The position numbers were made by a program, and so were the translations under genes. The notes below the pieces were generated by a model. That model was not told where the DNA came from. It was given only the letters and a program-made list of their open reading frames with translations, and did no database searches. A stretch of 64,000 nucleotides of DNA from a virus (lineage: Duplodnaviria > Heunggongvirae > Uroviricota > Caudoviricetes): the IMG/VR virus record IMGVR_UViG_3300009149_000021; one strand, written 5' to 3'. Every line of letters begins with the position of its first letter. Within the stretch, counting starts at the first letter, position 1. Of this stretch, positions 20,257 through 41,719 are shown in pieces.

Positions 20257-22059
20257 TTATAAAATACTTATTTTTTCTGTTTCTTCTTTTACAACGTCTA
20301 CTTTTACTGGTTCCGATTTACTCAAGATACCATAAACCATCATTGTATTTTTTGGAATCTCGATTGGTTTTTTACCATCGTTCCATATTACAATTCTGAG
20401 TTCATCTTCAAAGGATTCTGTCACAACATTTGGTTTTGTCAGAACATGGACATCTTCCAATGTATCCAATGCACTCCTTGGTTCAAAATGCATATGATAT
20501 CCTTTCTCAATGCTACATCTCCACCCAGTCCTTACAAATTTTGTTTCGCCTGGATTTATAATATTTTGTTCAATTGAAAAGAATCCAAATCCCGGAGATT
20601 TTCTTTCTTTGTATGATGGTACTATTAAATCTATCTCAGCAATATCAGGACACGCGATAAAATTTATTGTCGTGTCTGGTGTGTTATTGTAGTTGTATGT
20701 GCTATAACCACGATTGTAGTTGTTTGCCGCATAGTTGTTTGCCGCGTAGTTGTTTGATGCAGCTGATGCATTCGTTCCGCTTGTGGTTGTTGGTTTTGTA
20801 ACAGTTGACTCAGTCGTAGTCGGTTCGGTTTCTGTTGACTCAGTTGTGACTGGTTTGGTTTCTTCTGGTTTTGTGTCAGTCTCTATTGATATCAAAACAA
20901 AATCTTTACCATCAACAACTTTTATTTTATCCGAATCTCGTTTAACTTCTTCATATTTTTCTAATGCATGCCTGCTTTGTTCACTGAGCGGCTCCGCATT
21001 CGCGATATAGATGGTTGCTAAAATTTCATAAAAATTTGATTTAAATAACCACGTTGCAGCATTATTCAATCTTTTTATTACTGGTTTATCATATCCATCA
21101 GCACCCGCATCTATGAACAATCCCTTTCCGAGTTTGCAAAGATATTCTCCTAATTGACGTTCCTCAATTGGTTTTCCATTCTTGGCAAAAATAGAATTGA
21201 TTCTATTTAGATTTACATATTTATCAAAAAGATGACTTAGCAGAACTTCTGCTTTTGCATCTTCAGTTTTTATATCTTCGGTTGTTTCATTTCCCATTGC
21301 TTTCTCCATAAGATTTAATTCTGGCGTATCCACTGTTTTTTGGTTTGTTATTTTTTTAAATATTTCTCTCACAAGTTTAAAAATCATTCTTTCACCCTTA
21401 AATGTTTTATTATGCACAATAGGTCTAAAAACAATTCCTCCAATTAAATTATTTTCTAGTGAAATTTCATGCAACATCAATGATATAGCAGAAATCTTTT
21501 TGTCTGGTGTCAATTTTAATATATCTTCCATTTTTCCGGATCTTATCACTGGTACAGTTTTCATCTCTAGCATTCTTGCCAATTCTTTAACTCTGTCCCA
21601 TCCAACAAAAATTCCATTTATTGATATATCGTGTATCCACCAGTGATTTTGTGGAGAATAAATAACCATAGAATCCATTGGAATTCCAAATTTTGTTGGG
21701 TTGCCGGCTGGGTGTTTAAAATTAAAGAATCCACCAAACAGCACTCCATATATTTGTACCTTTACTTTTTCTGATCTACAAAATTCAATTATTTTTTTAT
21801 AATGAATAGATACAACATCCCCAGCACAACCATAAAAGCTTTCATCTGCAAAACCATATTTTCCACCAATTGCCAAATTGCCATCAGGATCACATAATAT
21901 GGAAACACAACTTCCTCTTATTTTTTCCGTCGCAACCCACTCATGACTATTTCCATTTGAGGCTTCGATGTCTGCTATAACTGTTGGTGATAATTCCTGT
22001 ATTCCATAATATCTTCGAAATACATCTTTTAGTTTTTCTGGTTGTAGAATATAAGTCAT
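20257..22059 (-). CDS. RNA-ligase-like nucleotidyltransferase (Rnl2-type motifs) fused via Thr/Pro-rich linker to a dUTPase-fold domain
   Basis: N-terminus: ATEKIRGS (motif I KxxG), GGIVFRP (motif IV-like), FKLVRE (motif V-like). Linker: TKPEETKPVTTESTETEPTTT then NNYAANNYAANNY. C-terminus: AEIDL, PRSALD and VIWNDG match dUTPase motifs 1, 2 and 3-tail; motif 3 core is TESFE instead of IDSDY. Confidence 0.5.
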   Translation of the reverse strand: MTYILQPEKLKDVFRRYYGIQELSPTVIADIEASNGNSHEWVATEKIRGSCVSILCDPDGNLAIGGKYGFADESFYGCAGDVVSIHYKKIIEFCRSEKVKVQIYGVLFGGFFNFKHPAGNPTKFGIPMDSMVIYSPQNHWWIHDISINGIFVGWDRVKELARMLEMKTVPVIRSGKMEDILKLTPDKKISAISLMLHEISLENNLIGGIVFRPIVHNKTFKGERMIFKLVREIFKKITNQKTVDTPELNLMEKAMGNETTEDIKTEDAKAEVLLSHLFDKYVNLNRINSIFAKNGKPIEERQLGEYLCKLGKGLFIDAGADGYDKPVIKRLNNAATWLFKSNFYEILATIYIANAEPLSEQSRHALEKYEEVKRDSDKIKVVDGKDFVLISIETDTKPEETKPVTTESTETEPTTTESTVTKPTTTSGTNASAASNNYAANNYAANNYNRGYSTYNYNNTPDTTINFIACPDIAEIDLIVPSYKERKSPGFGFFSIEQNIINPGETKFVRTGWRCSIEKGYHMHFEPRSALDTLEDVHVLTKPNVVTESFEDELRIVIWNDGKKPIEIPKNTMMVYGILSKSEPVKVDVVKEETEKISIL

Positions 22060-23539: not shown

Positions 23540-24892
23540 TCATTTTATCATTTCAAGATATTTAAATGCATCGTTTTTATCAACGATTTCACCTTCCAAT
23601 GTTTTTTCAATTAATTCATTCTTTATATTTTTTATCCATGGTCCTGGTTCAAAACAAGAATAGAATTCCATTATTTCATTTCCATCGAGTGGTGATTTTA
23701 TTTCAGATGGTTTTTCTGGAATATACTCACATTCCAATATACTATCAAAAAATTCTGTATTTTTATCCAGTTCTATATCGGATTTTCCCAATAGTATTAG
23801 TGGTTGAAGAATCTCTACATGCTTTCTAATGAATCTTGAAAATAATCTTCTATTGGGTTTATTATCACATGCTTCCTTGAGATGCTTCACATCCATATGG
23901 CTTGCAACGAGTTTAGAAATGAAATTGGTTTCAACTCTTTTCATTTTTAAATCGTCACATATAATTCTGGCCATCGCTCCACCATAATACGCATGGGCTG
24001 TAAATTTATACATTCCTTCTTGTCCACTACGAGTTAGTAATTTTCCAGTATCATGTATAAGAGCGGCGAATCTTATTAAAACATCTGTCGTCAACTTTGA
24101 TACATTTTCCAAAACATCAATAGTATGCTCATATACATCTTTCCTATGCCACGCACTTGATTGAGAAAAATATTTCATGGATTGGACGGGCGGCACAATA
24201 TATTTTAATAACCCCGACCACTCAAGATGATATATAGCATTCCTTATATTTTCACTTGGACATCCAAGAATTTTAAATAATTCATCTCGAATCCTTTCTT
24301 TAGAAATTGACGCTATATTTCTACAATTTTTTGATATAGTCCTTGAGAGACTTTCATCTATATTGAATCCGAGTTGTGCCCTGAATCTCATTGCTCTCAA
24401 CATCCGCAACCAATCCTCTTCCATTCTTTTTTCGGGATCACCAATGGCTCTGATAATCTTTCTTTTAATATCACTCTGTCCATCAAAATAATCAATTATT
24501 TCACCAGTAATTGGATCCAATGCCAGTGCATTCATTGTGAAGTCTCGTCGTTTACAATCTTCTTCCAATGTTCTTGCTACTTCCACATCAGCATGTCTCC
24601 CATCACAATTGTGATCAGTCCTAAATGTTGTTATCTCATACATTTCATTTGGACCACCATCCTTTATTACTATTGTCAGAGTGAGATGTTTCAACCCAGT
24701 ATCTTTAATTGTTATTCGGTCATCATTATATTTTTCAAATATTTCTTTTATTTGATCGGGCATCGCAGATGTCGTAAAGTCATAATCTTTTGGGGTTCTT
24801 CCTAATATATTATCTCTCACACAACCACCAACCAAATAAATCTCATGTCCTGCGTCTTTAATTATCTTCGCAATTGTCTGTATCGAGTTCAC
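23540..24892 (-). CDS. cca: tRNA nucleotidyltransferase (CCA-adding enzyme) with HD domain
   Basis: Head-domain GGCVRD..DYDF; HD motif AALIHDTGK; 450 aa. Confidence 0.8.
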   Translation of the reverse strand: MNSIQTIAKIIKDAGHEIYLVGGCVRDNILGRTPKDYDFTTSAMPDQIKEIFEKYNDDRITIKDTGLKHLTLTIVIKDGGPNEMYEITTFRTDHNCDGRHADVEVARTLEEDCKRRDFTMNALALDPITGEIIDYFDGQSDIKRKIIRAIGDPEKRMEEDWLRMLRAMRFRAQLGFNIDESLSRTISKNCRNIASISKERIRDELFKILGCPSENIRNAIYHLEWSGLLKYIVPPVQSMKYFSQSSAWHRKDVYEHTIDVLENVSKLTTDVLIRFAALIHDTGKLLTRSGQEGMYKFTAHAYYGGAMARIICDDLKMKRVETNFISKLVASHMDVKHLKEACDNKPNRRLFSRFIRKHVEILQPLILLGKSDIELDKNTEFFDSILECEYIPEKPSEIKSPLDGNEIMEFYSCFEPGPWIKNIKNELIEKTLEGEIVDKNDAFKYLEMIK

Positions 24893-25793
24893 TTAATTTA
24901 TCCCCCTTATAAAAATTTATCAATTTATGAACATCAACAATTTTACCTTCTATATTTCTTAATATATCAGCTATATTAGCATTCTTCTCAAGTTTCAAAT
25001 CACCATAAAATTCTTCAATGCATTTTATTAATAACATTTTTATTTTTTCTTCATCAACTTCATATGGTATTGTAGAAGCATCATATAACTTCTCAAGCCT
25101 TGCTTCATTTCTTTCAAAAAAATCTAAGATTCTCTGTATTTCCCACTCGCCTCTGCGAATAGATTTTAAAACTTCATTATGCTTCATAAGATCCATTTCG
25201 CCAGTAGTTAAGAGTTCCTCAACCTCAAGGAGAAGTCTGACTAAATGTGATGCAAATTTTACATCATAACCATATTTCTCAACTATTGCTACACGCTTTC
25301 CTTCCGGAACTTTTTTCTGCATCTTATCTTTCTGGCTCATCGCATATCCTCTGAAGGTGTGCCAACATTGTTTGCTGACAAATATTCTTCTATTTTCCAG
25401 AACCATTTTTCCTATTCGTGTTATGTGAGTGTGTAATTGCTCTCTGGTAAAGAGAGAATCTAACATGTTGGGGTTGTTATTAGCCACCAATCTAAAATAC
25501 CGCACAATTGAAAATATTGTTCCTTCAGCTTCTTTCTTTTTATATATAAATTTCCCTGGTGTTTGAAATTGTTTAAATATGGGAATATTGTTATCGAATC
25601 CATGTATGTATCCAAATAAATTTGGAACTATAAATTGTTTTGGTGGAATTGTAAAACCGCAAATATCATAATCCGATTGGTCGGTTTGACATCCATATGC
25701 TTGTGATCCAACAATAGTTTCATATTGTAGGTTATCTACTATCCACTCATCAAAACAACAACATGCTTGTAAAACGGATTTATTTATAATCAT
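24858..25793 (-). CDS. minimal Pol-beta-superfamily nucleotidyltransferase
   Basis: VGSQAYGCQTDQSDYDI fits the G[SG]-x(9-13)-D-x-D NTase signature. Confidence 0.5.
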   Translation of the reverse strand: MIINKSVLQACCCFDEWIVDNLQYETIVGSQAYGCQTDQSDYDICGFTIPPKQFIVPNLFGYIHGFDNNIPIFKQFQTPGKFIYKKKEAEGTIFSIVRYFRLVANNNPNMLDSLFTREQLHTHITRIGKMVLENRRIFVSKQCWHTFRGYAMSQKDKMQKKVPEGKRVAIVEKYGYDVKFASHLVRLLLEVEELLTTGEMDLMKHNEVLKSIRRGEWEIQRILDFFERNEARLEKLYDASTIPYEVDEEKIKMLLIKCIEEFYGDLKLEKNANIADILRNIEGKIVDVHKLINFYKGDKLSELDTDNCEDN

Positions 25794-27387: not shown

Positions 27388-28209
27388 TCAGGCCGGGTTT
27401 GCTCCTCTTTCCACTAAATACTCTTTTATCTCTGAATTGCAAGCATTTCTGACTAAATAATTTCTATGAAGATCTACCCTACAATTACATTCTTCCACAA
27501 GATATTTAATCAGAGACATATTTCCTTGTTTACATGCAACCTTTAAACTATAATGTGCACATGCATATGGTGGGCATCCTCTCGATATAAAATACTTTAC
27601 AATATCATTATACCCTTTTTCAGCAGCTCTTCTCATTGGATGACATTGATATTGCATGATGCTGGCACCTTTTTCTTCAACTAAGTATTTTACAATTTCT
27701 ATATTATCACTTTCAACAGCATAGGATATAAACAAATTATAAAAAACTTCTGGATAATTATCTATGAGTATTTTTGCAAAATCATTGTTTTCATACATAA
27801 TAGCATACTCAACAATCTTCTGAGGTTTTGGCAGATTATTTTTCCATTCTAGAAATAAATCTATATTATTTAAACATGCCAGCAATCGATATGCATTTTT
27901 TTGTGGTTCATAACCAGCGGTCCATGCTCTTAGAATATCAATAGAATTTTCACCTCTGTTGAAGATGTTTGCAAGATCTTTTATAAAAATAATATTGACA
28001 TTTTTACAAAGCATTTCCCGTGTTATTTCAAAATTTGTTTCTTTTTCTTTCTCTTTCTTCACTGGTGCATCATAATCTTTGATAAATGCTGCAAAAAAGT
28101 TTCTAATTGCTTCAAAAATCTTCACGTCAATCCTCCCAGATTTCTTTGATAACTTCTCTTTCTTTTTCCGATAAACCAACAATCCTATTAATAATTCTAT
28201 CTTTTTCAA
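27388..28209 (-). CDS. ankyrin-repeat protein
   Basis: Repeating AAEKGYNDIVKYFISRG / ACKQGNMSLIKYLVEE ankyrin-like units. Confidence 0.5.
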   Translation of the reverse strand: MKKIELLIGLLVYRKKKEKLSKKSGRIDVKIFEAIRNFFAAFIKDYDAPVKKEKEKETNFEITREMLCKNVNIIFIKDLANIFNRGENSIDILRAWTAGYEPQKNAYRLLACLNNIDLFLEWKNNLPKPQKIVEYAIMYENNDFAKILIDNYPEVFYNLFISYAVESDNIEIVKYLVEEKGASIMQYQCHPMRRAAEKGYNDIVKYFISRGCPPYACAHYSLKVACKQGNMSLIKYLVEECNCRVDLHRNYLVRNACNSEIKEYLVERGANPA

Positions 28210-29782
28210 ACCCTTTTGGCATTAACCCTTCTGGTTCAAATGGAATGTATGCTGGATCATCATATCTATGAAATTCTCTGACCTCTTCAACATTTGCGAT
28301 TTTCCTAGCCCACACGGACAAATTTGTTGACCCACATTGCATATCACAATTATACGCTCTTTGATTTTCCTCATCCCAATATGGTCTATCGCAAGAAATA
28401 GTATATTTAAAAACATCCAAAAAATTCAGATGTTTGGCCAAAAACCATTGTTCACTTTTCATCAGATCACTCAAACCATAAAAAAATTCTATTCTATTCC
28501 CACAAATTGTGCCTGTTTTAAAAAGCGAATTTAAAGAATCTATAAAGTTTCTCGAATTATCTGGATAAGATCCAGACTCTGTCATATTTGCCCACCCAGC
28601 ACACAAATACACAAAATCATATTCATTTTTTAATATCAACCCTTCAGCATATGCCGCCATGACTGTAGAAAAAACCATGTTTCTTCCAGCAGTCCATGCT
28701 ATTGTTTGCTTCAATCCTTCTTCTGTCCCAGTCTCGATTTTAACATTTTCGTTCATCAACATACTAAAATTATCGATTTTTGAGTATGCATCCTCTAAAC
28801 TAATTATTTCCAAAGGGATGTTCATTTCTCTGCAAATATTTTGTATTGCCCACTCTTCACATTTTTGACCCCTGTGTCCATATTTAAAATGGACGGCGGT
28901 CACATCTTTATCCAATTTTTTCAAAAGTGCCAATGTTGTTGTTGAATCTATTCCTCCGCTTGCCGCTACCAAATGTTTAACTCTTGGTGATTTTATAGAT
29001 TCCAAAATCTGTTTGTCCCACGATGGATGTGCGTAATTTGGTTCAAATGGTATTTTATTTATGAATCCAGAATCAATATCTATTTCTAAAATTCTGTGTG
29101 GTTGTATATTATGATGATACCAATCTTCCCAGACATTCATTCCATCAGTTTTAGATCCAGTTATATCCTCTATCACCTCTCCAATTGTTTCATTTAAACT
29201 ATGGAGCAAATAGCCATAACCTCTTATATAGCCCTGAGATAAAGGATTGTGATTCTTAATTGCGTATAATTTTTTCTTAAAAGAATCATACATTATAGCA
29301 GAAACACCACCACTTATAAATTCCATAGCAGCCTTAATATCATATCCATAATTTAAGTATGCATGGACAATTGCTTCAGAATCTATATCTGTGTGGAACG
29401 AAAATCCCCTTTGTTTCAATTCTGATATACTTTTTGTGGAAATTGCTCCATTGTGAACCAGACATATATTTCGTTCTTCTTCTCCTAGAAAAATTGGCTG
29501 CATTCCGTCTTCTGATGATTTTTCAGTTTCTGGTTGTGCTCGGCATATTCCAATAACTATATCATTTGGTCTTATCCCATCCGAATATAATTTTAAGATA
29601 TCATCTCTACAATCAGAATAACTTTTAGAATATCTTTTTCCAAAACTTGTATTATCATCCACGCCGATTACAACAAACGCACATCCATCATTTCCTCTTT
29701 TCTCCGCCCCTTTAAATAATAAATCTAATCTTTTTATTCCAAGAATAGATTCTCTTCCCCAGTATGCAAATATGCCACACAT
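28127..29782 (-). CDS. asnB: asparagine synthetase (glutamine-hydrolysing)-like
   Basis: N-terminal MCGIFAY (Ntn amidotransferase Cys2); PP-loop SGGIDST. Confidence 0.75.
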   Translation of the reverse strand: MCGIFAYWGRESILGIKRLDLLFKGAEKRGNDGCAFVVIGVDDNTSFGKRYSKSYSDCRDDILKLYSDGIRPNDIVIGICRAQPETEKSSEDGMQPIFLGEEERNICLVHNGAISTKSISELKQRGFSFHTDIDSEAIVHAYLNYGYDIKAAMEFISGGVSAIMYDSFKKKLYAIKNHNPLSQGYIRGYGYLLHSLNETIGEVIEDITGSKTDGMNVWEDWYHHNIQPHRILEIDIDSGFINKIPFEPNYAHPSWDKQILESIKSPRVKHLVAASGGIDSTTTLALLKKLDKDVTAVHFKYGHRGQKCEEWAIQNICREMNIPLEIISLEDAYSKIDNFSMLMNENVKIETGTEEGLKQTIAWTAGRNMVFSTVMAAYAEGLILKNEYDFVYLCAGWANMTESGSYPDNSRNFIDSLNSLFKTGTICGNRIEFFYGLSDLMKSEQWFLAKHLNFLDVFKYTISCDRPYWDEENQRAYNCDMQCGSTNLSVWARKIANVEEVREFHRYDDPAYIPFEPEGLMPKGFEKDRIINRIVGLSEKEREVIKEIWED

Positions 29783-32174: not shown

Positions 32175-32909
32175 TTAAAAACTCCCTGTTAAATAGTTAA
32201 CACTCAACCTTTTCAAATAATTTTCCGTAATTGTCTTTCTGGGATACTCAAAATTGTTTAAATTATCAGAATAATATTGTAATATGCTCCGATCATAAAA
32301 CGGACGAAATATCCCTAAATCAAACAAAATAACATTTTTCCTAAAACAAGCTTTACAACTCAGGCACTCGGTCGTGCCTGATGGTTTAAAACAAGAAAAT
32401 GTTAATTTTTGTAAATCATTTTCATCGAGAATAGTGTTTTTTAATGTTTGTTTCACCATTGCTATTTTAGAATACTCACTGAATAAACTTCCTATAGATA
32501 CTCTTTTGGAATATGTGCTCATAAAAAATTCATTGGATTTATCTATAAATATTTTTGAATTATCATGGACTCTATCATCTAAAGTATTACCTATTAAAAT
32601 AGAAAGATCATCCTTGTTGAAGTATTTCAATGTGATTAATATTAACATCAAATTCCGATATGGGATGAACACTTCATCTGCATCTTCCAACAGATCGAAT
32701 AGATCATGATATATTGGCAAAAACTTATCCATTAAATTTGATCCAAATTTCTTCGATAGTTGAGTGAGTGTCTCTTCTATTTTACTTAATTCTGCATGTT
32801 GATAATCAAGACCCATGTGGACATAAACAAAATAATCAGTAATATCGTGGATGTTCGCCAATGTGCACACTGAGTCGAGTCCGCCTGAGAATAATAATAT
32901 TTTTTTCAA
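32175..32909 (-). CDS. QueC-like PP-loop ATPase (7-cyano-7-deazaguanine synthase family)
   Basis: MKKILLFSGGLDS PP-loop; DYQH; IPYRNLMLILITL (QueC PGRN region); C-terminal Cys cluster CFKPSGTTECLSCKAC. Confidence 0.55.
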   Translation of the reverse strand: MKKILLFSGGLDSVCTLANIHDITDYFVYVHMGLDYQHAELSKIEETLTQLSKKFGSNLMDKFLPIYHDLFDLLEDADEVFIPYRNLMLILITLKYFNKDDLSILIGNTLDDRVHDNSKIFIDKSNEFFMSTYSKRVSIGSLFSEYSKIAMVKQTLKNTILDENDLQKLTFSCFKPSGTTECLSCKACFRKNVILFDLGIFRPFYDRSILQYYSDNLNNFEYPRKTITENYLKRLSVNYLTGSF

Positions 32910-32922: not shown

Positions 32923-34662
32923 TTAGAAATTCAATCCTATTGAATTTAAATAGTATCTAAATAGTTGTAGTGTTGCTGGTTCGCTTTTCATTTCAACCGT
33001 TTTCGCATAACCAGTATTAAATAAATTTCTAAGTAAACTAATTTTGCTTCCAAGATCATCGGATTTTATATTTACTTCTTTTAAATTTTCTATTGCATCA
33101 TATGCTATCATTGCCCAAACTTCCATCTCGCCAATTCTCTGTGCTCCCTGGCCAGATGCGGGTTGGATTGTTTTCCTCGTGTAGTTTCCAACTGTTCTTG
33201 CTTTGAGCTTTCCATCTATAGTATGTATAAGTTTCATTAAAAACATATTACCAACCGCAACAGGTCCAATCGTTCTTCCCTGTAGTTTCAGAGGATAATA
33301 TTGTTTTGTCGCAGTATAATCCATGAATAAATCCAGATTATCTTTTGTGAAACTTTCGAATGGTGGTTGTATAAGAACCAAATCTTCAATTAATTTTTTA
33401 TCCATTCCATGTCTTTTAATTAAATTTGCTACTTCCTTGCTATACCATTTGTCTTTAGATGTATCTATATGATTGGTTATACCTGCCAAAGCTTTCATGG
33501 CGTATTTAGGATCTTCATCAAATTTCTTCGATAGTTTTTGTTTTAGGAAATGCATACCAAGTCCAGCGTGCAATTCAAACAGCTGGCCAATATTCATACG
33601 AGAAATTATACTCAGCGATCCTAATATAACTTCCAAAGGTTGTCCCCACGGAGTTACAGGCATTTTTTTATCTGGAACAATAATACTTATAACACCTTTA
33701 TTACCATGACGATTGGAAAATTTGTCCCCAACCCTTGTGTATTTTTTATAGGTGTATTTTATTTTCATTATCATACCATCAATTCTCACACCTTTATCAT
33801 TGATATGACCTTTGAATTTATGAATATCACAATTCATAGCATCAATTGAATTATTCAGATCGCTATCTGAAATTTTATCTTTCAATTTTATCATTTCACC
33901 ATGAATATGTTTTGAATTTTCTAGAACTGATACAATATAATGATTGAACTCACTGTAGTTTTTGCACCAATCATTTATATAGAATTTCACATCTGTTACA
34001 GTAATATCATCTTTCAATGTTATTGGTCTCGGGGAATCACATAAGAATCTTGGGTTGCTTGAAACATATTTTATTAGAAGGACTGGATCATTCTTTTTTA
34101 CAATATCACCAATTTTCGGAATCGGTTTATAATCTTTTCTATCTAATGAAAGCAGAACTTCATTCATATTAAGACTTATAATCAATTCATCTTCAGCAAG
34201 TGATGTGAATTTTTCAGCAGCTGATTCGGAAAAAACTATAGAATCCTCATGACAATAACCAAAGTATTCCATGTACCCGACTAACATATTTCTTCCATAC
34301 TTTATATTTCCATTTTCAGTACTAATATGTTCGTAGATGATATCACCAGTTTTAAATTCTTCATCGGTTTCATAATAACAGTTCAGATACCAATGCATTT
34401 TAGATGTCTCAAAAGTTTCATCCTCATATTGCAAAATCAGTAATTGGTTATTCTTAAACAAAACCTTTCCTGATTTCTCAGCAATCTTAGTATATAAACC
34501 AAGATGTGAAATGTTATCATAACCAGTACATATCAAAGGAATTTCTGGATTTTCCAAAATCAATGACTGCTTCATTTGAGAAGCAGCCATTTGACAACGG
34601 GTAGGGTCATCATTTTGAACAAATGGTATTAGACAAATGGGAAATGTCGTAAAGTCAGACAT
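32923..34662 (-). CDS. multisubunit RNA polymerase beta subunit, C-terminal half
   Basis: LIPFVQNDDPTRCQMAASQMKQ (beta motif IPFLEHDDANRALMGxNMQRQ); GDKFSNRHGNKGVIS (GDKxxxRHGNKGVxS). Own AAGGAG RBS 11 nt after the stop of the N-half gene. Confidence 0.85.
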   Translation of the reverse strand: MSDFTTFPICLIPFVQNDDPTRCQMAASQMKQSLILENPEIPLICTGYDNISHLGLYTKIAEKSGKVLFKNNQLLILQYEDETFETSKMHWYLNCYYETDEEFKTGDIIYEHISTENGNIKYGRNMLVGYMEYFGYCHEDSIVFSESAAEKFTSLAEDELIISLNMNEVLLSLDRKDYKPIPKIGDIVKKNDPVLLIKYVSSNPRFLCDSPRPITLKDDITVTDVKFYINDWCKNYSEFNHYIVSVLENSKHIHGEMIKLKDKISDSDLNNSIDAMNCDIHKFKGHINDKGVRIDGMIMKIKYTYKKYTRVGDKFSNRHGNKGVISIIVPDKKMPVTPWGQPLEVILGSLSIISRMNIGQLFELHAGLGMHFLKQKLSKKFDEDPKYAMKALAGITNHIDTSKDKWYSKEVANLIKRHGMDKKLIEDLVLIQPPFESFTKDNLDLFMDYTATKQYYPLKLQGRTIGPVAVGNMFLMKLIHTIDGKLKARTVGNYTRKTIQPASGQGAQRIGEMEVWAMIAYDAIENLKEVNIKSDDLGSKISLLRNLFNTGYAKTVEMKSEPATLQLFRYYLNSIGLNF

Positions 34663-34673
34663 ATTTTCTCCTT

Positions 34674-35942
34674 TTAATCAATAAGTCCCTCCTCATCTTC
34701 AGTAAACAAAATATTTCGTTTTTCTTCGATAAGCTTCGAGTTGATTGTTAAAAAATTAACAATACCACATGCCTGCCTATCTGCTGTTAATATCGGATCT
34801 AAATTCATATAATAACTCTCATGTATATTTCTCAGATCAGTTGGCATCGATTTTTTACTCAGCCCCTGTGGTCCAGAATATGTTCCTTTCATAGACTCTC
34901 CTATGCTGTGTATAATAGTAACACCGTGATCCGCTAAATGGTGCATTTCTGGCATCTTACCAGAAAGATAATTTGTTATATTTACGGTTTTGTTCTTGTC
35001 AACCTTATATGAACTTCTTGATATCAAAAACGAAAGTATTTCTGAAAATAAAGGTCCGAGAATATATTGAGAAAGTAAAACATCTTTTCTCACTAGGTTT
35101 CCGCGCTCTTGTGTGTGTTCATCTCTATTTAAAAACCTATGAAATAATTCCTGTGGTATTGATGGTTGGGTCAATTTCAATGATATAAAGACATCCGATT
35201 GTTTAACATAATCAAAATACTCTATCAAATTGAACTTTTTATATTTAAACGAATTAGACATCTCCCACCAGAATTCCTTGGAATTGAATTTTACTTTATT
35301 GTTTATTTTCTGATCTAGAAAATTTTCAATGAGCATATCGAACGATTCATTTTCAGGATCAATCTTTTCGATTACTATGCGCTCTGATATTTTCTCTGTT
35401 ACACTTTTAGATATACTAATCAATCTATGGTTACATTTTTCCAAAAACCATTCTAGATCATTATAATAACACATCATATTTCCCATGTGTGTTTTCTTAT
35501 CCGCAATACCAGTCCATCCCTTGTTTGCGTTAAAATGGATTGTAAGAATAGTACCAATCATCCTAAAGATATCTTTTGATACAACAAATGTATCCAATAA
35601 TTGAAATAACGGATGTCGATAAACCCCGTTTATAACGAATTCCAAAGTGTGTTTTTCCGGCACAGGATAAACTATTTCTAAATTATAGTTAAGAACTTTG
35701 GTGTTTGATTGATTATTATATTTTATATTTATTTTTAATGATTTTTCCAAAGTACTTTTTATAGTTTTGACCCTTCTTTTTGATGTGGAACTCTCATCAA
35801 GTTCCACATCAACTATTCCAGGAATCAATTTAATTTTTTCAATAATCAATTTTATTGTTTTTTCTATGTTATCACGAATTTCTTCTCTCTTATATGCAAA
35901 CACTTTATCAACAAATGCAGGATTTCTAAAATTATAAATCAT
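34674..35942 (-). CDS. multisubunit RNA polymerase beta subunit, N-terminal half
   Basis: FVINGVYR (beta GxFxINGxER) and DLRNIHESYY...DPILTADRQACGIVNFL (beta HPTHYGRxCPIETPEGxNxGLI region). Confidence 0.7.
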   Translation of the reverse strand: MIYNFRNPAFVDKVFAYKREEIRDNIEKTIKLIIEKIKLIPGIVDVELDESSTSKRRVKTIKSTLEKSLKINIKYNNQSNTKVLNYNLEIVYPVPEKHTLEFVINGVYRHPLFQLLDTFVVSKDIFRMIGTILTIHFNANKGWTGIADKKTHMGNMMCYYNDLEWFLEKCNHRLISISKSVTEKISERIVIEKIDPENESFDMLIENFLDQKINNKVKFNSKEFWWEMSNSFKYKKFNLIEYFDYVKQSDVFISLKLTQPSIPQELFHRFLNRDEHTQERGNLVRKDVLLSQYILGPLFSEILSFLISRSSYKVDKNKTVNITNYLSGKMPEMHHLADHGVTIIHSIGESMKGTYSGPQGLSKKSMPTDLRNIHESYYMNLDPILTADRQACGIVNFLTINSKLIEEKRNILFTEDEEGLID

Positions 35943-35961
35943 AAAATCACCTCCATATGAC

Positions 35962-38592
35962 CTATAGGCGATTGAACATAAATTTCAATAAAATATTATT
36001 ATAATTTGGATTCTTTAATATTTCGTAGAAATTTGTTCTGCCCGGGCTAAACGCAAATGCAAGCAATGGAGATTGGAATCCTATACAAACTATCTTACTA
36101 TAAGCTTTATATGGTACATCAACACCCATCCTTCTCCATAACACTAATTTACCATCAGAATCTGACCACAATAACTGAGATATAAGTAATTCCACATGGA
36201 CCATTTGTATATTGGAATAAGAACCATACACTTTCATGAGTATCGATAACATTTCCCTATAACTTTCACATTTACCAGACAACACATCACCAACTTTTTT
36301 CATATCAGAAATGATATCTTCCTGAGTATCGGAACCCACTTTCGCAATAGCAGCACCTGATATGTGGAAAGTTCTTAAGACGTGCTGTGTATTTATTTCA
36401 CCGATCGCCTGTGCTGCAATAAAACCAACATAACGGCTTCTGGCAAGTGAACTCAACTCACCATAGCATTTTTTACAAATATTTTTTCCTTTGCATCTGA
36501 TTGGCGATCGCAGCACTAATTTTTTTCCAATATCATCAACAGTTACTTTTCTAGATACACCCAATTCATCAATTACATATCTCCCATATAAATGATTAAT
36601 CATCTTTTCATCTAACTTAATTGGTATTCCTTCTGTTGTTCCACAATCTTCAGAGTCATAGTCCAATTCAATTGATGACATGGCATAAATTAATTGTCTG
36701 GTCATATATCCAGCTTTGGCTGTATTCTCTGCAGTATCGATAAGACCTTTCCTTGTTCCATAACATGATAGAAAATGTTCTCTTGGAGTCAAACCCTCGA
36801 TCAAACTATGTATGATAGGTGTTTTCAAAAAATTTCCCTGGTAATCAGAAACATGTCCCCTTGCCCAGAAAATCTGTTTTGCCTGCAACCAATCACCTCT
36901 AGCAGAAGATCTTATCAATTTATTCAATTTGAATTTCGGTTTTAATCCTTCTATATATCGTTCTTCATTAGCTATATTTACATTTGGATTATCACTATTA
37001 TATATTTCTTTTTCTTTTAATTCATATGTTACTTCTGGTATTACATAATTATCAAGACATACGTTTACTGGATAAAATGTACTATATTCAAATCCAATGT
37101 TTTTTATTTTATCACATACTCCAGCCACGATATCACTACTATATTTGATACTCAACTCATATAATATATTCTTTATAGTTTTTCTATCAATCGTTTCATT
37201 CACAAATGGATAATCTTCAGGAAATATTTTATTAAATTCGACTCTTCCTTTTGTGGTTTTGATTCCTTCGTGTTCAATTTCTTCATTAAAATCATATTCT
37301 TTATCATCCTGTGTCAGAATAAAAATACCATATACCATGGACTGACTAGGTGCAAAATTGAAATTTGTATTAGAAACACTTAGGAGATTTTTAGAAGGGA
37401 GCATTTTATCTATGCATTCAACAGTAGCATCGATGGTCAGTGGTCTATATATTGCCATTTGATCGCCATCGAAGTCAGCATTATATGGTGCACATATTAA
37501 CGGATTTATATGAATTGCTAACGTATCTTTTGTAACTACTTTAAATGCAAACATGCCCATTCTATGCAATGTTGGTTGTCTATTCAAAATTATTATTTTT
37601 CCATCGCATGTTTCTTTTATAATATCGTGCAAATTTATCTGATCGGTTATATGTTTCCCCAATAATTCATTTGCTTCCTGTGATGTAACACACACCTTCT
37701 TCTGCAACATATAATTTATGAGTTCTGGTTTAAATAAAGATACCAACAATTTATCAGACACACCAGCTTCATCCAACCCAAGACAAGGATCTACTACAAT
37801 AGTTGATCTTCCTGAGAAATCAATTCTTTTTCCTAATAAATTGTTTCTTATTAATTTTTGTTTATCGCCATTTATATAATCTTCACAATGCTCATACATT
37901 TTGAAGACATCATACCATATCCCCATCACAAAATCATAATTAAAAAATTTAGTTTTTTCCGGTTCAGTGAATTTATTATATTGTTCAATTTTAATTAAGA
38001 TATGTTGATATATATAATTCAGTGAATCCATGGCAAGCTCTTTATTTGTGACAATTATAGGTCTGAGATCAGGTGGTATAACAACAATATGTTTTGTATA
38101 TATACTATCAAATTTAGTCTTCAGAACTTTATAAATATCTGGAACGAATTTCTTTGCCATTTCCTCAACTAACTCATACAATACCTTTATGTCCATTTCA
38201 TCGTCACTTACTTTTTCTACAAATTTTCCTTGTTCAAGTTCGTAAAACGTATAACCTGTCAGCAATCTTGCCATCATTTTAGAAAAACGATCTGATTTTT
38301 GCTTCATTGCCAAATATATCATTGGATGTAGAACTAGACAAGGCAATTTAATGGTCGCCATGGTTCTTCTTCTCACTATGCTTGATGTGAATCTGACACC
38401 ACATCTCTCACATAATTTACCAACATCAGTTGTATTTTTAATTTTGCATTGACACGTATAGTCTCGAACGGGACCAAAGATTTGTTCAGAAAAAATTCCT
38501 TGCGAATGAAATGTATTTTGCGATTTCATGATTTTACTGGCAGATATTTCCGGAAGTCCTTCTCCGTATTTTTCAACATCCAGTAGTTTCAA
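35962..38592 (-). CDS. multisubunit RNA polymerase beta' subunit, N-terminal part (A'-like)
   Basis: N-terminal Zn motif CQCK...CERCGV; universal catalytic NADFDGDQM motif; 876 aa. Confidence 0.85.
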   Translation of the reverse strand: MKLLDVEKYGEGLPEISASKIMKSQNTFHSQGIFSEQIFGPVRDYTCQCKIKNTTDVGKLCERCGVRFTSSIVRRRTMATIKLPCLVLHPMIYLAMKQKSDRFSKMMARLLTGYTFYELEQGKFVEKVSDDEMDIKVLYELVEEMAKKFVPDIYKVLKTKFDSIYTKHIVVIPPDLRPIIVTNKELAMDSLNYIYQHILIKIEQYNKFTEPEKTKFFNYDFVMGIWYDVFKMYEHCEDYINGDKQKLIRNNLLGKRIDFSGRSTIVVDPCLGLDEAGVSDKLLVSLFKPELINYMLQKKVCVTSQEANELLGKHITDQINLHDIIKETCDGKIIILNRQPTLHRMGMFAFKVVTKDTLAIHINPLICAPYNADFDGDQMAIYRPLTIDATVECIDKMLPSKNLLSVSNTNFNFAPSQSMVYGIFILTQDDKEYDFNEEIEHEGIKTTKGRVEFNKIFPEDYPFVNETIDRKTIKNILYELSIKYSSDIVAGVCDKIKNIGFEYSTFYPVNVCLDNYVIPEVTYELKEKEIYNSDNPNVNIANEERYIEGLKPKFKLNKLIRSSARGDWLQAKQIFWARGHVSDYQGNFLKTPIIHSLIEGLTPREHFLSCYGTRKGLIDTAENTAKAGYMTRQLIYAMSSIELDYDSEDCGTTEGIPIKLDEKMINHLYGRYVIDELGVSRKVTVDDIGKKLVLRSPIRCKGKNICKKCYGELSSLARSRYVGFIAAQAIGEINTQHVLRTFHISGAAIAKVGSDTQEDIISDMKKVGDVLSGKCESYREMLSILMKVYGSYSNIQMVHVELLISQLLWSDSDGKLVLWRRMGVDVPYKAYSKIVCIGFQSPLLAFAFSPGRTNFYEILKNPNYNNILLKFMFNRL

Positions 38593-39790: not shown

Positions 39791-40373
39791 ACTCCTCCTT
39801 CCATATTAAATTATTTTTTGACATAGATTTAAAATCAACAATAAACGATTTAATATTAGATTTATTTGATTCGAGAACATCAATCAAATAACTACAGAAT
39901 TTCATAGAATTATGAATATCCGGCTTACTATCATATTCTTTTGGGTTATATCTGAATTTAAGATAATCTTCTTCATTTAAAAGGATACCACACTGATTGT
40001 TAATGAAACATTTGAAATAAAAATTTGAATTTAAGTTATTTATAACTTCATTATTATCGCGAAAGTCAAGCGCCAGATCAAACTCTGCCACATTATCATG
40101 TAAATAATCCTCGACTTTCCCGCAACAAAAATCCACAATACTAACATATGGGTTGTGAATTTTATAAATTAATCTGATGCACTCCACGATCTTAGATTTA
40201 TTTACATTAGAATACCATGTATACTTAAGATCGTCATCACTTATATTATCGTAGTCTACCAATGAAATATCCCATGATTGATTTAGATCATTGGTTTTGA
40301 GAAGCGTAAAAAGAAAGTTGGCTCCTAATGTTCCCAATCCTCCCATTAGAACTCTCAATAATCCTCCTTTCAA
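39756..40373 (-). CDS. E1-like/ThiF-MoeB-family adenylyltransferase domain protein (short; no obvious catalytic Cys region)
   Basis: VLMGGLGTLG (GxGxxG), ISLVDYDNISDDDL (ThiF LxLxDxDxVxxSNL region), NPYVSI, DLALDFRDN...IN, CGILL; ordered matches to E. coli ThiF. Confidence 0.65.
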   Translation of the reverse strand: MKGGLLRVLMGGLGTLGANFLFTLLKTNDLNQSWDISLVDYDNISDDDLKYTWYSNVNKSKIVECIRLIYKIHNPYVSIVDFCCGKVEDYLHDNVAEFDLALDFRDNNEVINNLNSNFYFKCFINNQCGILLNEEDYLKFRYNPKEYDSKPDIHNSMKFCSYLIDVLESNKSNIKSFIVDFKSMSKNNLIWKEEYDNRIVEIQRD

Positions 40374-41719
40374 GCTCCAACTATATCAAATCCATTTAAT
40401 AAATAGAATTCTTTTCTTAGTTCCCATTCATCAATTAATCTTTGATGGGATGAATCTAGAAAATCAATAACAACTGGTGGTTGTTTACTTTCATGGATTC
40501 TTAGAATTCTTCCTATAGATTGTTCTAAATATGTTGGGCTTACCATAGAGGAGAGGAATATCAATGTGTCTAAGGAACTTTCATCTATTCCTTTATAACA
40601 CATTGCGTAATTTGATAAAATCACTTGTTTGGATAATGCATCTCTTCCTACACCAGAAATAAATACCGATATATCATCATCCAGAACATCATATTTTTCA
40701 ACAAGTATATTTTTCATCTCTTTTAGAAAATCATTTTTGAGACCAGATAAAATTAATAATTTTCTTTTTTTATCATATGCTTGTTTTATAATAGAACAGA
40801 CCATTTTTAAATAACCAGTTCTTTTAATTATTTGTTTATAATACTTTCTTTTATCAAATCTTCCCCCCCAATAAATATATCTTTTAAAATTATCATCTAG
40901 CTTTGATTCAAACTTCACAACCTTGATGGTTGGTTTTATTTCGTGTACGGCGTGAACATACATTTTATTAGATAGCCATGATTTTATTATAGTTTCCCTA
41001 TTTAAATTTTTATAGGGTGTGGCACTCAAACCTATCAATCGTTTTGAAAAACAATATGCGCATGCGGTTGTAAACGCTTCCGGCCCTATTATACAATGAA
41101 CCTCATCAAAAAATGTTAGACCAAAATTTGCTGCTTTCATGATAGCACCAAAAGATTTCCCATCTTTTCTAATTTTAGCCAACACACTTTGAACAGTCGT
41201 TATAACAATTGGATAATCCAAATTTAATTTTTTATCTAAAATACCTATATCACTTTCTGCACAGGACGAATGTTGCGTAAATCTCTCTATCCATTGTTCT
41301 GCTAATGCTAGTTGATCGACAAAAATTAATGCCTTTTTCCCTATGTCACAAATAGCTTTTATAGCAACGACAGTTTTCCCGAAACCAGGAGCGCATTTTA
41401 TAAATCCACAATAATTATTTATAATAAAATCTACAGCTTCTTTCTGATATTCATTTCTATATTTCACTTTACTTGTCATCGAAATAGATTCACCAACATC
41501 GGAATTATTAATTATTCCTGGCCGCTGAATAATATTCCTCGGCATCAACAGTTCACTTCCTAGCTCTTTATACAATTTTATCTTCTTAATTTTAGAATCA
41601 AAATTGAATTCTTGTATTGTCATGATGTCTTTCAAATATTCTATTTGATCACACGACAATTCTTTTTTATTAATATGTAGCCAGGAATCTATGTACACTA
41701 TCGTTCCTCCTCTATCCAA
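40370..41719 (-). CDS. SF2 DEAD/DEAH-box helicase
   Basis: Walker A APGFGKT; DEVH box FFDEVHCI; helicase C-terminal arginine-finger region. Confidence 0.7.
   Translation of the reverse strand: MDRGGTIVYIDSWLHINKKELSCDQIEYLKDIMTIQEFNFDSKIKKIKLYKELGSELLMPRNIIQRPGIINNSDVGESISMTSKVKYRNEYQKEAVDFIINNYCGFIKCAPGFGKTVVAIKAICDIGKKALIFVDQLALAEQWIERFTQHSSCAESDIGILDKKLNLDYPIVITTVQSVLAKIRKDGKSFGAIMKAANFGLTFFDEVHCIIGPEAFTTACAYCFSKRLIGLSATPYKNLNRETIIKSWLSNKMYVHAVHEIKPTIKVVKFESKLDDNFKRYIYWGGRFDKRKYYKQIIKRTGYLKMVCSIIKQAYDKKRKLLILSGLKNDFLKEMKNILVEKYDVLDDDISVFISGVGRDALSKQVILSNYAMCYKGIDESSLDTLIFLSSMVSPTYLEQSIGRILRIHESKQPPVVIDFLDSSHQRLIDEWELRKEFYLLNGFDIVGA

What the first reader, a model, noticed from the sequence alone, without database searches (positions are those of the whole stretch)
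32923..38592. Bacterial-type multisubunit RNAP encoded as split genes: beta' N-part, then beta divided into two ORFs with its own RBS at the split
The beta gene is cleanly cut between the HPTHYGR-like region and the IPFLEHDDANR-like region. The sequence across the split reads ...EGLID-stop, AAGGAGAAAAT, ATG-SDFTTFPICLIPFVQNDD..., so this is a genuine intercistronic junction rather than a frameshift artefact. The beta' ORF (876 aa) stops after the active-site region, and its C-terminal (trigger-loop) part is not in this window. Split beta/beta' is typical of jumbo-phage RNAPs (phiKZ/AR9-like), but this one keeps strong cellular motifs (NADFDGD, GDKxxxRHGNKGVIS).
Basis: seen in the sequence. Interest (0 to 1): 0.6.

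Follow-up and report, generated by a model that had tools for sequence, protein, structure and literature searches.

The report
Phage RNA polymerase with split beta
An uncultured phage carries its own bacterial-type RNA polymerase, with a complete but compact beta' gene and a beta gene that is truly divided into two adjacent genes; this is a new variant of two phage polymerase types that are already described.

Summary
Three minus-strand ORFs encode beta' (35962-38592, 876 aa), beta-N (34674-35942, 422 aa) and beta-C (32923-34662, 579 aa). The beta junction reads TAA-AAGGAGAAAAT-ATG. It is identical in three independent assemblies and conserved in relatives whose beta' is 48-78% identical.

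The 876-aa ORF is a complete compact beta'. It has both Zn sites, NADFDGD, the bridge helix, both trigger-loop helices and the C-terminal motif. Its AF2 model superposes on whole bacterial beta' (TM 0.75-0.80).

The enzyme belongs to the compact "mReC" phage RNAP lineage (Weinheimer & Aylward 2020), with gene order beta'->beta. Verified mReC contigs carry an unsplit ~1000-aa beta, and beta-N plus beta-C (1001 aa) map onto it end to end.

The split lies in a short variable linker (E. coli beta ~580-666). This is the same place, within ~13 residues, as in the AR9 non-virion RNAP, and AR9 beta-N is the best structural match.

In the closest relative a 612-aa homing endonuclease sits exactly between the halves. 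About 38 clusters of stand-alone beta-N exist. The mReC study's >=800-aa filter excluded such phages.

Verdict: new variant of a known kind, moderate interest.

The parts
35962..38592 (-). Complete compact RNAP beta' (876 aa, TTG start). Landmarks: Zn ribbon C47/C49/C61/C64; clamp coiled-coil helices 190-240; NADFDGD 371-377; second Zn site C650/C700/C706/C709; bridge helix ~603-637 (GYMTRQ 628); trigger-loop helices 722-744 (RTFH 740) and 759-771; C-terminal motif equivalent to region H.
35943..35961 (-). Beta'-to-beta-N intercistronic spacer (TAG GTCATATGGAGGTGATTTT ATG) containing a GGAGG Shine-Dalgarno. The gene order beta'->beta is the reverse of cellular rpoB-rpoC.
   Evidence: The same order is seen in all compact-clade loci.
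34674..35942 (-). Beta-N (422 aa): the N-terminal half of beta, running up to the fork domain. GPQG is at 357 and DPILTADR at 382, followed by a 24-aa variable tail.
   Evidence: Pfam Rpb2_3 only. The profile aligns residues 343-401 to E. coli beta 521-579. AF2 pLDDT 85.5, pTM 0.85. Best Foldseek match is AR9 nvRNAP beta-N, 7s00_c, aligned end to end.
34663..34673 (-). Split junction: an 11-nt spacer AAGGAGAAAAT between the beta-N stop (TAA) and the beta-C ATG. It carries the Shine-Dalgarno for beta-C. The two ORFs are in different frames.
32923..34662 (-). Beta-C (579 aa): starts 9 residues before LIPFVQNDD. Contains the HEDS acidic pair (138), the flap region, GDKFSNRHGNKG (312), GEMEVWA (511) and the Rpb2_7 clamp connector.
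   Evidence: Pfam Rpb2_6 + Rpb2_7. PDB alignments. Maps to residues ~403-1000 of the unsplit mReC beta.
40370..41719 (-). DEAD/ResIII (SNF2-like) helicase in the same tightly packed minus-strand gene string. It recurs near the RNAP genes in many related loci and is a possible accessory factor (inferred only).
   Evidence: Compare the RNAP-linked helicase noted by Iyer et al., PMC7824862.

Best explanation
The region encodes the catalytic core of a phage-encoded multisubunit RNA polymerase of the compact, deep-branching 'mReC-type' lineage.

Beta' is one complete but trimmed polypeptide of 876 aa. Beta is encoded as two adjacent, translationally linked cistrons. Beta-N (422 aa) covers the protrusion/lobe region up to the fork. 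Beta-C (579 aa) covers the second double-psi barrel, the flap and the clamp connector.

The cut lies in a short, poorly conserved linker. This linker replaces E. coli beta ~580-666 in the whole compact family, so nothing is lost: 422 + 579 = 1001 aa, against ~1000 aa in unsplit relatives.

The two halves are inferred to assemble non-covalently with beta' into an active core. This has been shown experimentally for the AR9 non-virion RNAP, whose beta is cut at the same place. The enzyme would then transcribe the phage genome, which probably carries 7-deazaguanine-modified DNA, independently of host RNAP.

The fission is inherited within a subclade. It most likely arose from, or is maintained alongside, insertion of a free-standing homing endonuclease ('genes in pieces'), because such a gene occupies exactly this gap in the closest relative.

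Shown here: the gene structure, its conservation, its homology, its completeness, and the mapping of the split site. Inferred: subunit assembly, enzyme activity, biological role, and the homing-endonuclease origin.
For: Gene structure and junction.

Not an artefact: identical in three assemblies.

Split conserved in relatives:
- L084/L085 (beta' 78% identical): beta-N 406 aa | homing endonuclease 612 aa (phrog_3339, E 1e-104) | beta-C 579 aa.
- L086 (52%) and L087/88 (48%): the two ORFs overlap as TAATG, preceded by a Shine-Dalgarno.
- L096/97: a more distant lineage with beta' -> beta-N 432 aa -> 14 nt with GGAGG -> beta-C.
- L094 and L095 are split at the same HMM position, ~395-401.

Unsplit relatives: L004-L019 and L026 have a beta of 994-1067 aa. 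Window beta-N maps to ~1-397 and beta-C to ~403-1000. Two of these contigs are listed as mReC in the paper's supplement.

Beta' is complete.

Catalytic motifs are intact.

Same split as AR9: AR9 gp089 residue 24 aligns to beta-C residue 11. The beta-N model best matches AR9 beta-N 7s00_c, TMq 0.64, 478 of 484 columns. The AR9 core assembles without alpha or omega (PMC9209446).

Precedent for the origin: homing endonucleases splitting essential phage genes that stay functional (PMC2988022).

Second example in this dataset: in L045 an endonuclease of the same family sits at a beta' split.

Prevalence: 38 stand-alone beta-N clusters against 41 long forms among 1.84 billion representative proteins.
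Against: - No biochemical data exist for any member of this lineage, so assembly and activity are inferred.
- The window itself has no homing endonuclease at the junction. Only one of four close lineages has one, so parsimony equally allows a late insertion into a gap that already existed.
- My NJ tree of the N-half puts the unsplit mReC clade inside a paraphyletic set of split lineages. The direction of change (fission versus fusion) is therefore unresolved. Bootstrap support could not be computed because the run timed out.
- No alpha, omega, sigma or gp226-like subunit was recognised in the 64-kb window. How promoters are recognised is unknown.
- The rest of the genome (at least 117 kb) was not examined.
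Confidence: 0.8

Rival explanations
1. The split state is ancestral. The common ancestor of the compact phage RNAPs, possibly shared with the AR9/phiKZ non-virion enzymes, already had beta-N and beta-C as separate genes. The ~1000-aa unsplit beta of published mReC phages would then be a secondary fusion.
For: - The split site is the same as in AR9, within ~13 residues, and AR9 beta-N is the best structural match.
- In the NJ tree of the N-half, the split lineages are numerous and paraphyletic around a single unsplit clade.
- 38 stand-alone clusters exist.
- Iyer et al. argued that phage split forms may pre-date fusion.
Against: - Cellular beta and the other phage clades used as outgroups (L020-L028, Carin-5, YerA41) are unsplit.
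- AR9 beta-C shows no special affinity for split lineages: 92 bits to the window against 145 bits to the unsplit L016.
- The NJ tree is built on very divergent sequences and has no support values.
- Independent fissions at other sites exist: L023 in beta and L024/25/45 in beta'. Fission is therefore recurrent.
Confidence: 0.25
2. One reading: a phiKZ/AR9-like jumbo-phage RNAP whose beta' is also split, with the trigger-loop and C-terminal part encoded elsewhere in the genome.
For: Beta is split as in AR9. Beta' (876 aa) is much shorter than cellular beta' (about 1200-1400 aa).
Against: - Beta' contains the bridge helix, both trigger-loop helices and the motif equivalent to region H.
- Foldseek alignments span whole bacterial beta' chains.
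- Most family members of 843-963 aa match nearly the whole of the query (92-100%).
- The window holds no other RNAP-like ORF.
Confidence: 0.04
3. Artefact or pseudogene: a frameshift, assembly error or decaying gene produces the apparent split.
For: None beyond the generic possibility. In L095 beta-N looks fragmented (274 + 51 aa), and L023 has a split without a clear Shine-Dalgarno.
Against: - Three assemblies give identical proteins.
- The stop, Shine-Dalgarno and ATG architecture is conserved. Beta-C starts MS(D/K/E)(F/Y)(T/L)TF in relatives down to 48%.
- In the relative L084 the halves are separated by a 1.9-kb gene, yet both remain intact.
- All catalytic motifs are intact.
Confidence: 0.02
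4. A full-length beta is regenerated after transcription or translation, by a split intein, an intron, or programmed frameshifting or readthrough.
For: The genome does host an intein, in the RNR gene. 'Fractured genes', with split inteins flanking a homing endonuclease, are known (PMC2677866).
Against: - There is no room for intein halves. Beta-N ends 7-24 aa after the fork motif and beta-C starts 9 aa before LIPF. The summed length equals that of the unsplit beta.
- The 11-nt spacer cannot hold an intron.
- The frame relationship differs between relatives: an 11-nt gap, a TAATG overlap, or a 1.9-kb insert.
Confidence: 0.02
5. The rpoB/rpoC genes were captured recently from a cellular host.
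For: The cellular motifs are strongly retained. The next-best hits after the phage family are bacterial beta' proteins, many of them from Patescibacteria and Actinomycetota.
Against: - Cellular beta' is only ~30% identical over 65-87% of the query, against 33-78% over nearly the full length within the phage family.
- The gene order is reversed, both subunits are compact, and the deletions are shared with mReC contigs.
- The NJ tree places it in the phage clade.
Confidence: 0.02

Closest known systems
mReC: multisubunit-RNAP-encoding Caudovirales (Weinheimer & Aylward 2020, PMC7481178)
   Same: - Compact, deep-branching beta' (~880-930 aa) with NADFDGD.
- Gene order beta'->beta.
- The nearest unsplit relatives (33-37% beta' identity) include contigs listed in that paper.
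- Large T4-like environmental phages.
- A QueE-like radical-SAM gene is often close by.
   Different: - Published mReC members have a single beta ORF of ~1000 aa. Here beta is two genes.
- The study required both subunits to be >=800 aa, so split-beta phages were excluded by design.
- The window subclade is a separate deep branch of the compact clade. Whether it is nested within mReC or sister to it is unresolved.
AR9/PBS1 (and phiKZ-type) non-virion RNAP of jumbo phages (PDB 7S00/7S01; PMC9209446, PMC7598289)
   Same: - Beta is encoded as N and C halves cut in the same linker, within ~13 residues.
- AR9 beta-N is the best structural match for beta-N.
- AR9 beta-C gp089 aligns from residue 24 to beta-C residue 11.
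- No alpha or omega homologue is detectable.
   Different: - AR9 and phiKZ also split beta' after the DPBB domain, scatter the genes around the genome, carry two RNAP sets (virion and non-virion), and need a fifth sigma-like subunit (gp226/gp68).
- Here beta' is unsplit, the three genes are contiguous, the window holds only one set, and the sequences are far closer to cellular RNAP.
'Genes in pieces' created by free-standing homing endonucleases (Aeh1 nrdA/mobE; T4 gene 39/60/mobA; phage 25 gene 43; PMC2988022)
   Same: - An essential enzyme gene that is contiguous in relatives is divided into two cistrons.
- In the closest relative an HNH-type homing endonuclease lies precisely in the gap.
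- The TAATG overlaps suggest translational coupling.
   Different: - In the window itself the endonuclease is absent and only an 11-nt spacer remains.
- Causality (insertion caused the split, versus insertion into an existing gap) is not established.
- The target is an RNAP subunit rather than RNR, topoisomerase or DNA polymerase.
Cultured phages with related single-set RNAPs: Cobetia phage Carin-5, Yersinia phage YerA41/GN1
   Same: Order beta'->beta and compact subunits.
   Different: - Only ~23-26% identical.
- Beta is unsplit (924-927 aa).
- YerA41 instead splits beta' (556 + 518 aa).
- Carin-5 has an annotated sigma-like gene upstream. No counterpart was recognised here.

Membership tests
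mReC (Weinheimer & Aylward 2020) | Encodes homologues of both COG0085 (beta) and COG0086 (beta'), with the NADxDGD motif | tested here: met
   Pfam Rpb1/Rpb2 domains. NADFDGD at residue 371.
mReC (Weinheimer & Aylward 2020) | Operational filter: each subunit is a single ORF of >=800 aa | tested here: not met
   Beta' is 876 aa and passes. Beta is 422 + 579 aa, so neither piece reaches 800 aa.
mReC (Weinheimer & Aylward 2020) | RNAP clusters with the phage clade, apart from cellular and NCLDV homologues | tested here: met
   - Family hits have E 1e-118 to 1e-290 over nearly the full length. Cellular hits have E ~1e-90 over 65-87%.
- The NJ tree places it in the compact clade with L007, L015 and L016.
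- L007 and L016 are listed mReC contigs.
- Whether it is nested or sister is unresolved, and there is no bootstrap support.
mReC (Weinheimer & Aylward 2020) | T4-like major capsid protein (PF07068/VOG11186) and TerL PF03237 | tested here: inconclusive
   Neither the capsid protein nor the terminase lies in the 64-kb window. The only hint is that ORF 60076-60783 matches the T4 gp13-like ORF of L094.
phiKZ/AR9-type jumbo-phage non-virion RNAP | Beta split into N and C polypeptides | tested here: met
   Same linker as AR9 gp105/gp089.
phiKZ/AR9-type jumbo-phage non-virion RNAP | Beta' split after the DPBB domain into N and C polypeptides | tested here: not met
   A single 876-aa ORF spans the DPBB domain, bridge helix, trigger loop and C-terminal motif.
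phiKZ/AR9-type jumbo-phage non-virion RNAP | Two paralogous RNAP sets (virion and non-virion) | tested here: inconclusive
   The window holds only one set by HMM search of all six frames. The rest of the >=117-kb genome was not available.
phiKZ/AR9-type jumbo-phage non-virion RNAP | Fifth, sigma-like specificity subunit (gp68/gp226) | not testable with these tools
   No Pfam or PHROG signal in the neighbouring ORFs. These proteins are too divergent for sequence detection.
Homing-endonuclease 'genes in pieces' | The gene is contiguous in relatives and split here at one site | tested here: met
Homing-endonuclease 'genes in pieces' | A free-standing homing endonuclease gene occupies the split site | tested here: not met
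   Absent in the window, where the spacer is 11 nt. Present at exactly that site in the 78% relative L084/L085 (phrog_3339, E 1e-104).
Homing-endonuclease 'genes in pieces' | The pieces reassemble into an active enzyme | not testable with these tools
   Supported only indirectly, by conservation of both halves and of the catalytic motifs and by the AR9 precedent.
Split-intein 'fractured genes' (Dassa 2009) | N- and C-intein halves flank the break | tested here: not met
   No extra residues. The tails are 7-24 aa and 9 aa, and the summed length equals that of the unsplit beta.

The most novel reading that the evidence does not exclude
Phages with a split beta and an unsplit beta' form a diverse assemblage that I did not find described in my literature searches. 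At least 38 clusters at 50% identity exist, and the size filter of the mReC study could not see them.

These phages might bridge the mReC lineage and the enigmatic phiKZ/AR9 non-virion RNAPs. Under this reading the shared beta split site is inherited from a common ancestor, and the unsplit mReC beta could even be a re-fusion. That would give jumbo-phage RNAPs a traceable origin.
Probability: 0.22. Interest if true: 0.65.

Novelty: new variant of a known kind. Interest (0 to 1): 0.42.

Why it matters
- It shows that the published catalogue of 'deep-branching' phage RNAPs is truncated by a length filter. Roughly half of the detectable N-half clusters are stand-alone proteins.
- It supplies a natural series for studying how an essential multisubunit enzyme tolerates gene fission: unsplit, split with a homing endonuclease in the gap, and cleanly split.
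- The same linker is cut in AR9, which is only distantly related. That marks the linker as a structurally permissive point, and possibly as an evolutionary link between two phage RNAP groups whose origins are debated.
- A three-gene core of 876 + 422 + 579 aa would also be an attractive minimal RNAP for biochemistry.

Tried and rejected
- Megablast of the locus against isolate phages: no match.
- Looked for a second RNAP set or a stray beta' C-terminal fragment in all six frames of the window: none.
- Looked for alpha, omega or sigma-like genes. Pfam and PHROGs on the four small ORFs upstream of beta', on downstream ORFs and on most other window ORFs gave nothing. Even the annotated Carin-5 'sigma' is not recognised by Pfam.
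- The small upstream ORFs are conserved only in the 78% relative, so no conserved accessory subunit could be proposed.
- Promoter-motif hunt in the intergenic gaps: the only recurrent motif belonged to tRNA-like elements, not promoters.
- Tested whether AR9 beta-C is specifically closer to split lineages: it is not.
- The bootstrap for the beta' NJ tree timed out, so the topology is unsupported.
- Two exact-protein look-ups for right-hand window ORFs were not on record.
- Considered and rejected on anatomy: intein or intron trans-splicing, recoding, assembly error, and recent cellular transfer (see the rival explanations).

Full report
**1. What is in the sequence**

Window positions 32923-38592 carry three consecutive minus-strand ORFs:
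- 35962-38592, 876 aa, TTG start.
- 34674-35942, 422 aa.
- 32923-34662, 579 aa.

Pfam assigns Rpb1 domains 1, 2, 3 and 5 to the first ORF, Rpb2 domain 3 to the second, and Rpb2 domains 6 and 7 to the third. The junction between the second and third reads ...GGACTTATTGAT TAA AAGGAGAAAAT ATG TCT GAC..., i.e. stop, 11 nt with an AAGGAG Shine-Dalgarno, then ATG. The two ORFs are in different frames. The beta'/beta-N junction is a 19-nt spacer with GGAGG.

**2. The split is not an artefact**

The same three proteins, in the same arrangement, occur on contigs from three independent assemblies: Logan SRR5210834 (48.6 kb), JGI 3300024262 (56.2 kb) and ENA ERZ27249621 (116.9 kb).

The split is also conserved in diverged relatives, each with a different junction layout:
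- In L086 (beta' 52% identical) and L087/L088 (48%), beta-N (411 and 409 aa) and beta-C overlap by one base (TAATG). A Shine-Dalgarno lies inside the end of beta-N.
- In L084/L085 (78%), beta-N (406 aa) and beta-C (579 aa) are separated by a 612-aa gene.
- In L096/L097, a much more distant lineage, the layout is beta' -> beta-N (432 aa) -> 14 nt with GGAGG -> beta-C.

Beta-C starts MS(D/K/E)(F/Y)(T/L)TF... in the window subclade.

The varying frame relations rule out recoding. Extra residues are also absent: beta-N ends 7-24 aa after the fork motif and beta-C begins 9 aa before LIPF. This rules out split inteins and introns.

**3.

- phmmer against PDB aligns residues 30-748 with bacterial beta'. 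The aligned stretch includes the bridge helix (…AGYMTRQLIYA…) and the first trigger-loop helix (…AAQAIGEINTQHVLRTFHISGAA).
- A family HMM additionally aligns E. coli 1228-1265 (…HIEVIVRQML…) to window ~775-812.
- By inspection, the C-terminal consensus S.PS.ESWLLGLAFSNPK…GILDKIL.GE parallels the bacterial …ASL.TESFISAASFQETTRVL…GLKENVI.G motif. This comparison rests on my own knowledge of the E. coli sequence.
- Family-invariant cysteines mark both Zn sites (C47/49/61/64 and C650/700, with C706/709 nearly invariant).
- An AlphaFold2 model (mean pLDDT 85.3, pTM 0.77) shows the two trigger-loop helices at 722-744 and 759-771.
- Foldseek superposes the model on whole bacterial beta' chains, with TM normalised to the query of 0.75-0.80 and alignments of 1140-1270 columns.
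- About 68 database clusters of 843-963 aa match the query; most cover 92-100% of it.
- The window holds no other RNAP-like ORF in any frame.

The 876-aa protein is therefore a trimmed but complete beta', not an 'N-part'.

**4. Which lineage it belongs to**

There is no nucleotide match to isolate phages, and protein matches there are only 23-30% identical. In the large protein database the compact beta' family comes first: 78, 52 and 48% identity, then many members at 33-37%. Cellular beta' follows at ~30% identity over 65-87% of the query.

In IMG/VR loci of the compact clade (L004-L019, L026) the order is beta' then beta, the reverse of cellular rpoB-rpoC. Beta there is one ORF of 994-1067 aa.

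Two of these contigs are listed as mReC in the supplement of Weinheimer & Aylward 2020:
- 3300005915 Ga0075122_10000014, 152,423 bp, with beta 1006 aa and beta' 933 aa.
- 3300017989 Ga0180432_10000070, 149,482 bp.

That study describes a Caudovirales clade with a deep-branching RNAP. It required both subunits to be at least 800 aa, so split-beta phages could not enter its dataset.

An NJ tree of beta' places the window subclade (window, P0002, P0003, P0004) as one of three deep branches of the compact clade. The other two are a small branch (P0061/64/67/68) and the large unsplit mReC branch. The bootstrap run timed out, so there are no support values. Members of the small branch are also split at the same HMM position (L094: beta-N 395 aa; L095: beta-C 573 aa).

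**5. Where the cut is**

In a MAFFT alignment with unsplit relatives and E. coli rpoB, window beta-N plus beta-C (1001 aa) cover the ~1000-aa unsplit beta end to end. The cut lies ~10 residues upstream of LIPF(L/V)(E/Q)(H/N)DD (E. coli 667-675). It follows the fork motif (E. coli ~549-579).

In the whole compact family, the ~90 residues that E. coli has between these motifs are replaced by a ~25-aa variable linker. The cut lies within this linker.

Catalytic elements are intact: HEDS (the E. coli E813/D814 equivalent), GDKFSNRHGNKG and GEMEVWA in beta-C, and GPQG…DP..T.DR in beta-N.

**6. Relation to AR9/phiKZ**

- AR9 non-virion beta-C (gp089, PDB 7S00 chain C) aligns from its residue 24 to beta-C residue 11. 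AR9's cut is therefore in the same linker, ~13 residues away.
- The AlphaFold2 model of beta-N (pLDDT 85.5, pTM 0.85) has AR9 beta-N (7s00_c) as its best PDB match. The E-value is 5.8e-12, TMq 0.64 and TMt 0.57, with 478 of 484 columns aligned. This is ahead of every bacterial beta.
- The AR9 structure paper shows that such a core assembles without alpha or omega.

The differences are substantial. AR9 and phiKZ also split beta', scatter the genes, carry two enzyme sets and need a fifth subunit. None of this is seen here. AR9 beta-C is also no closer to split than to unsplit compact betas: 92 bits to the window against 145 bits to the unsplit L016. The shared site may be convergent.

**7. Origin of the split**

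The gene lying between beta-N and beta-C in L084/L085 is a homing endonuclease: PHROG 3339 'homing endonuclease' at E 1e-104, PHROG 559 'HNH endonuclease' at E 3e-73, and Pfam DUF7487.

This is the classic 'genes in pieces' situation known from Aeh1 nrdA/mobE, T4 gene 39/60/mobA and phage 25 gene 43. In those cases the pieces reassemble into active enzymes.

Three further observations fit:
- In another RNAP clade (L024/L025/L045) beta' is cut at ~780 aa. In L045 an endonuclease of the same PHROG (E 8e-52) sits exactly at that cut, while L020 and L022 have the unsplit ~1005-aa form.
- The window genome itself hosts an HNH-containing intein in its RNR gene.
- L084 also carries an IS605 OrfB/TnpB fragment just after beta-C.

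However, only one of four close lineages has the endonuclease at the beta gap. Insertion into an already existing gap is therefore equally parsimonious.

**8. How widespread it is**

A profile of five stand-alone beta-N proteins was searched against 1.84 billion representative proteins and found 91 hits. Of the 90 I classified:
- 38 are stand-alone proteins of 354-495 aa that end 0-54 residues after the fork motif.
- 41 are 960 aa or longer.
- 11 are fragments or unclear.

A few of the short ones may be truncations (e.g. P0136, P0166). The best of these outside the window's own subclade has no counterpart in isolate phages.

In an NJ tree of the N-half, the unsplit ~1000-aa forms make essentially one clade among many split lineages. 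This leaves the polarity (repeated fission versus one fusion) open. I found no paper describing split-beta relatives of mReC. This is absence in the searchable library, not proof of absence.

**9. Mechanism and context**

Shown:
- A contiguous beta'/beta-N/beta-C string sits within a long, tightly packed minus-strand gene array. Each cistron has its own Shine-Dalgarno, or the cistrons overlap at stop and start.
- All catalytic and Zn motifs are present.
- The beta' clamp coiled-coil (helices 190-240), which binds sigma in bacteria, is retained.

Inferred:
- The three products form a minimal alpha/omega-less core, as in AR9.
- The core transcribes the phage genome independently of host RNAP.
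- Promoter specificity comes from an unidentified factor.

The neighbourhood encodes the following:
- QueC, a GATase-QueC fusion and a QueE-like radical-SAM enzyme, which suggest 7-deazaguanine DNA modification.
- Topoisomerase II subunits and SbcC.
- A DEAD/ResIII helicase that recurs near RNAP genes in related loci.
- NAD-dependent DNA ligase, RNA ligase and a CCA/poly(A) polymerase.

A tmRNA gene and strong Shine-Dalgarno usage point to a bacterial host, despite the 'Pacearchaeota/Woesearchaeota' labels on mis-binned relatives.

**10. Verdict**

This is a new variant of two known kinds. It is an mReC-type compact phage RNAP whose beta is divided at the AR9-type site. A homing endonuclease was caught at that site in its nearest relative.

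It is of moderate interest: not surprising in principle, but it exposes a sizeable overlooked group and a clean natural series for studying gene fission. The most novel reading that remains open is that these enzymes link mReC to the jumbo-phage non-virion RNAPs. I rate its probability at about 0.2.

Noticed in passing
window 50250-53993 (-): A class II-type ribonucleotide reductase (Ribonuc_red_lgC + TSCPD) is interrupted by an intein carrying an HNH endonuclease (aa ~298-754). This is a second homing element in the same genome.
   Followed up: partly
window 3021-3353 (-): Phage-encoded tmRNA gene (Rfam RF00023, 74.5 bits, full length), missed by ARAGORN. The window also has 9 tRNA genes: 7 found by ARAGORN plus 2 found only by Rfam, at 7799-7870 and 8441-8513.
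   Followed up: partly
window minus strand, near 2366, 5711, 8521, 10852, 10927, 11084 and 11211: Seven copies of a motif (G/A)CAGTGG-N~10-(A/G)GTTACTTC, several of them followed by GGTTCAAATCC T-arm-like boxes.
- Most are not called as tRNAs. The copy near 8521 abuts the Rfam-only tRNA at 8441-8513.
- Another copy overlaps a weak Y-RNA-like (YrlA) hit at 10968-11089 (29.7 bits, below the gathering score).
- Together with the RlaP nucleotidyltransferase (24858-25793), RNA ligase (20257-22059) and CCA/poly(A) polymerase (23540-24892), this may be an RNA-repair or Y-RNA-like module.
   Followed up: partly
window 32175-32909, 28127-29782, 54772-55791 (-): QueC, a GATase-QueC fusion and a QueE-like radical-SAM enzyme suggest 7-deazaguanine DNA modification. 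The radical-SAM gene recurs close to the RNAP genes in many mReC loci, and lies immediately upstream of beta' in L095.
   Followed up: partly
L045 12353-13240; L024/L025/L045 versus L020/L022: In a different phage RNAP clade, beta' is split at ~780 aa into beta'N (~780 aa) and beta'C (~230 aa). In L045 a homing endonuclease of the same PHROG (3339, E 8e-52) sits exactly in that gap. L020 and L022 have the unsplit ~1005-aa beta'.
   Followed up: partly
L029-L064 and others (IMG/VR): A large clade of viral contigs encodes beta and beta' fused in one ORF of ~2000-2400 aa, with the beta part first. In the NJ tree it groups with the other phage RNAPs.
   Followed up: no
L023 7709-10708: One compact-clade contig has beta cut at a different place (523 + 463 aa, with a 37-nt gap and no obvious Shine-Dalgarno). 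It is either an independent fission or an error.
   Followed up: no
L094 (168-kb contig) 10747-11934: A stand-alone beta-N (395 aa) follows beta', but no beta-C was found within the 8 kb downstream. The halves may be dispersed in that genome, as in jumbo phages.
   Followed up: no
L027 13348-14760 and 18185-19465; L084 16706-17203: IS605/TnpB-type transposase genes are inserted between or next to RNAP subunit genes in related phages.
   Followed up: no
window 6991-7770, 56906-57289, 59546-60070 (-): An anti-Pycsar Apyc1-like metallo-beta-lactamase-fold protein, a SpoVS-like protein and an Amidase_2 endolysin candidate.
   Followed up: no
window 40370-41719 (-): A DEAD/ResIII (SNF2-like) helicase lies 1.8 kb upstream of beta' and is conserved near RNAP genes in 13 related loci. 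It recalls the RNAP-linked Rad25-like helicase of phiKZ-type phages noted by Iyer et al..
   Followed up: partly
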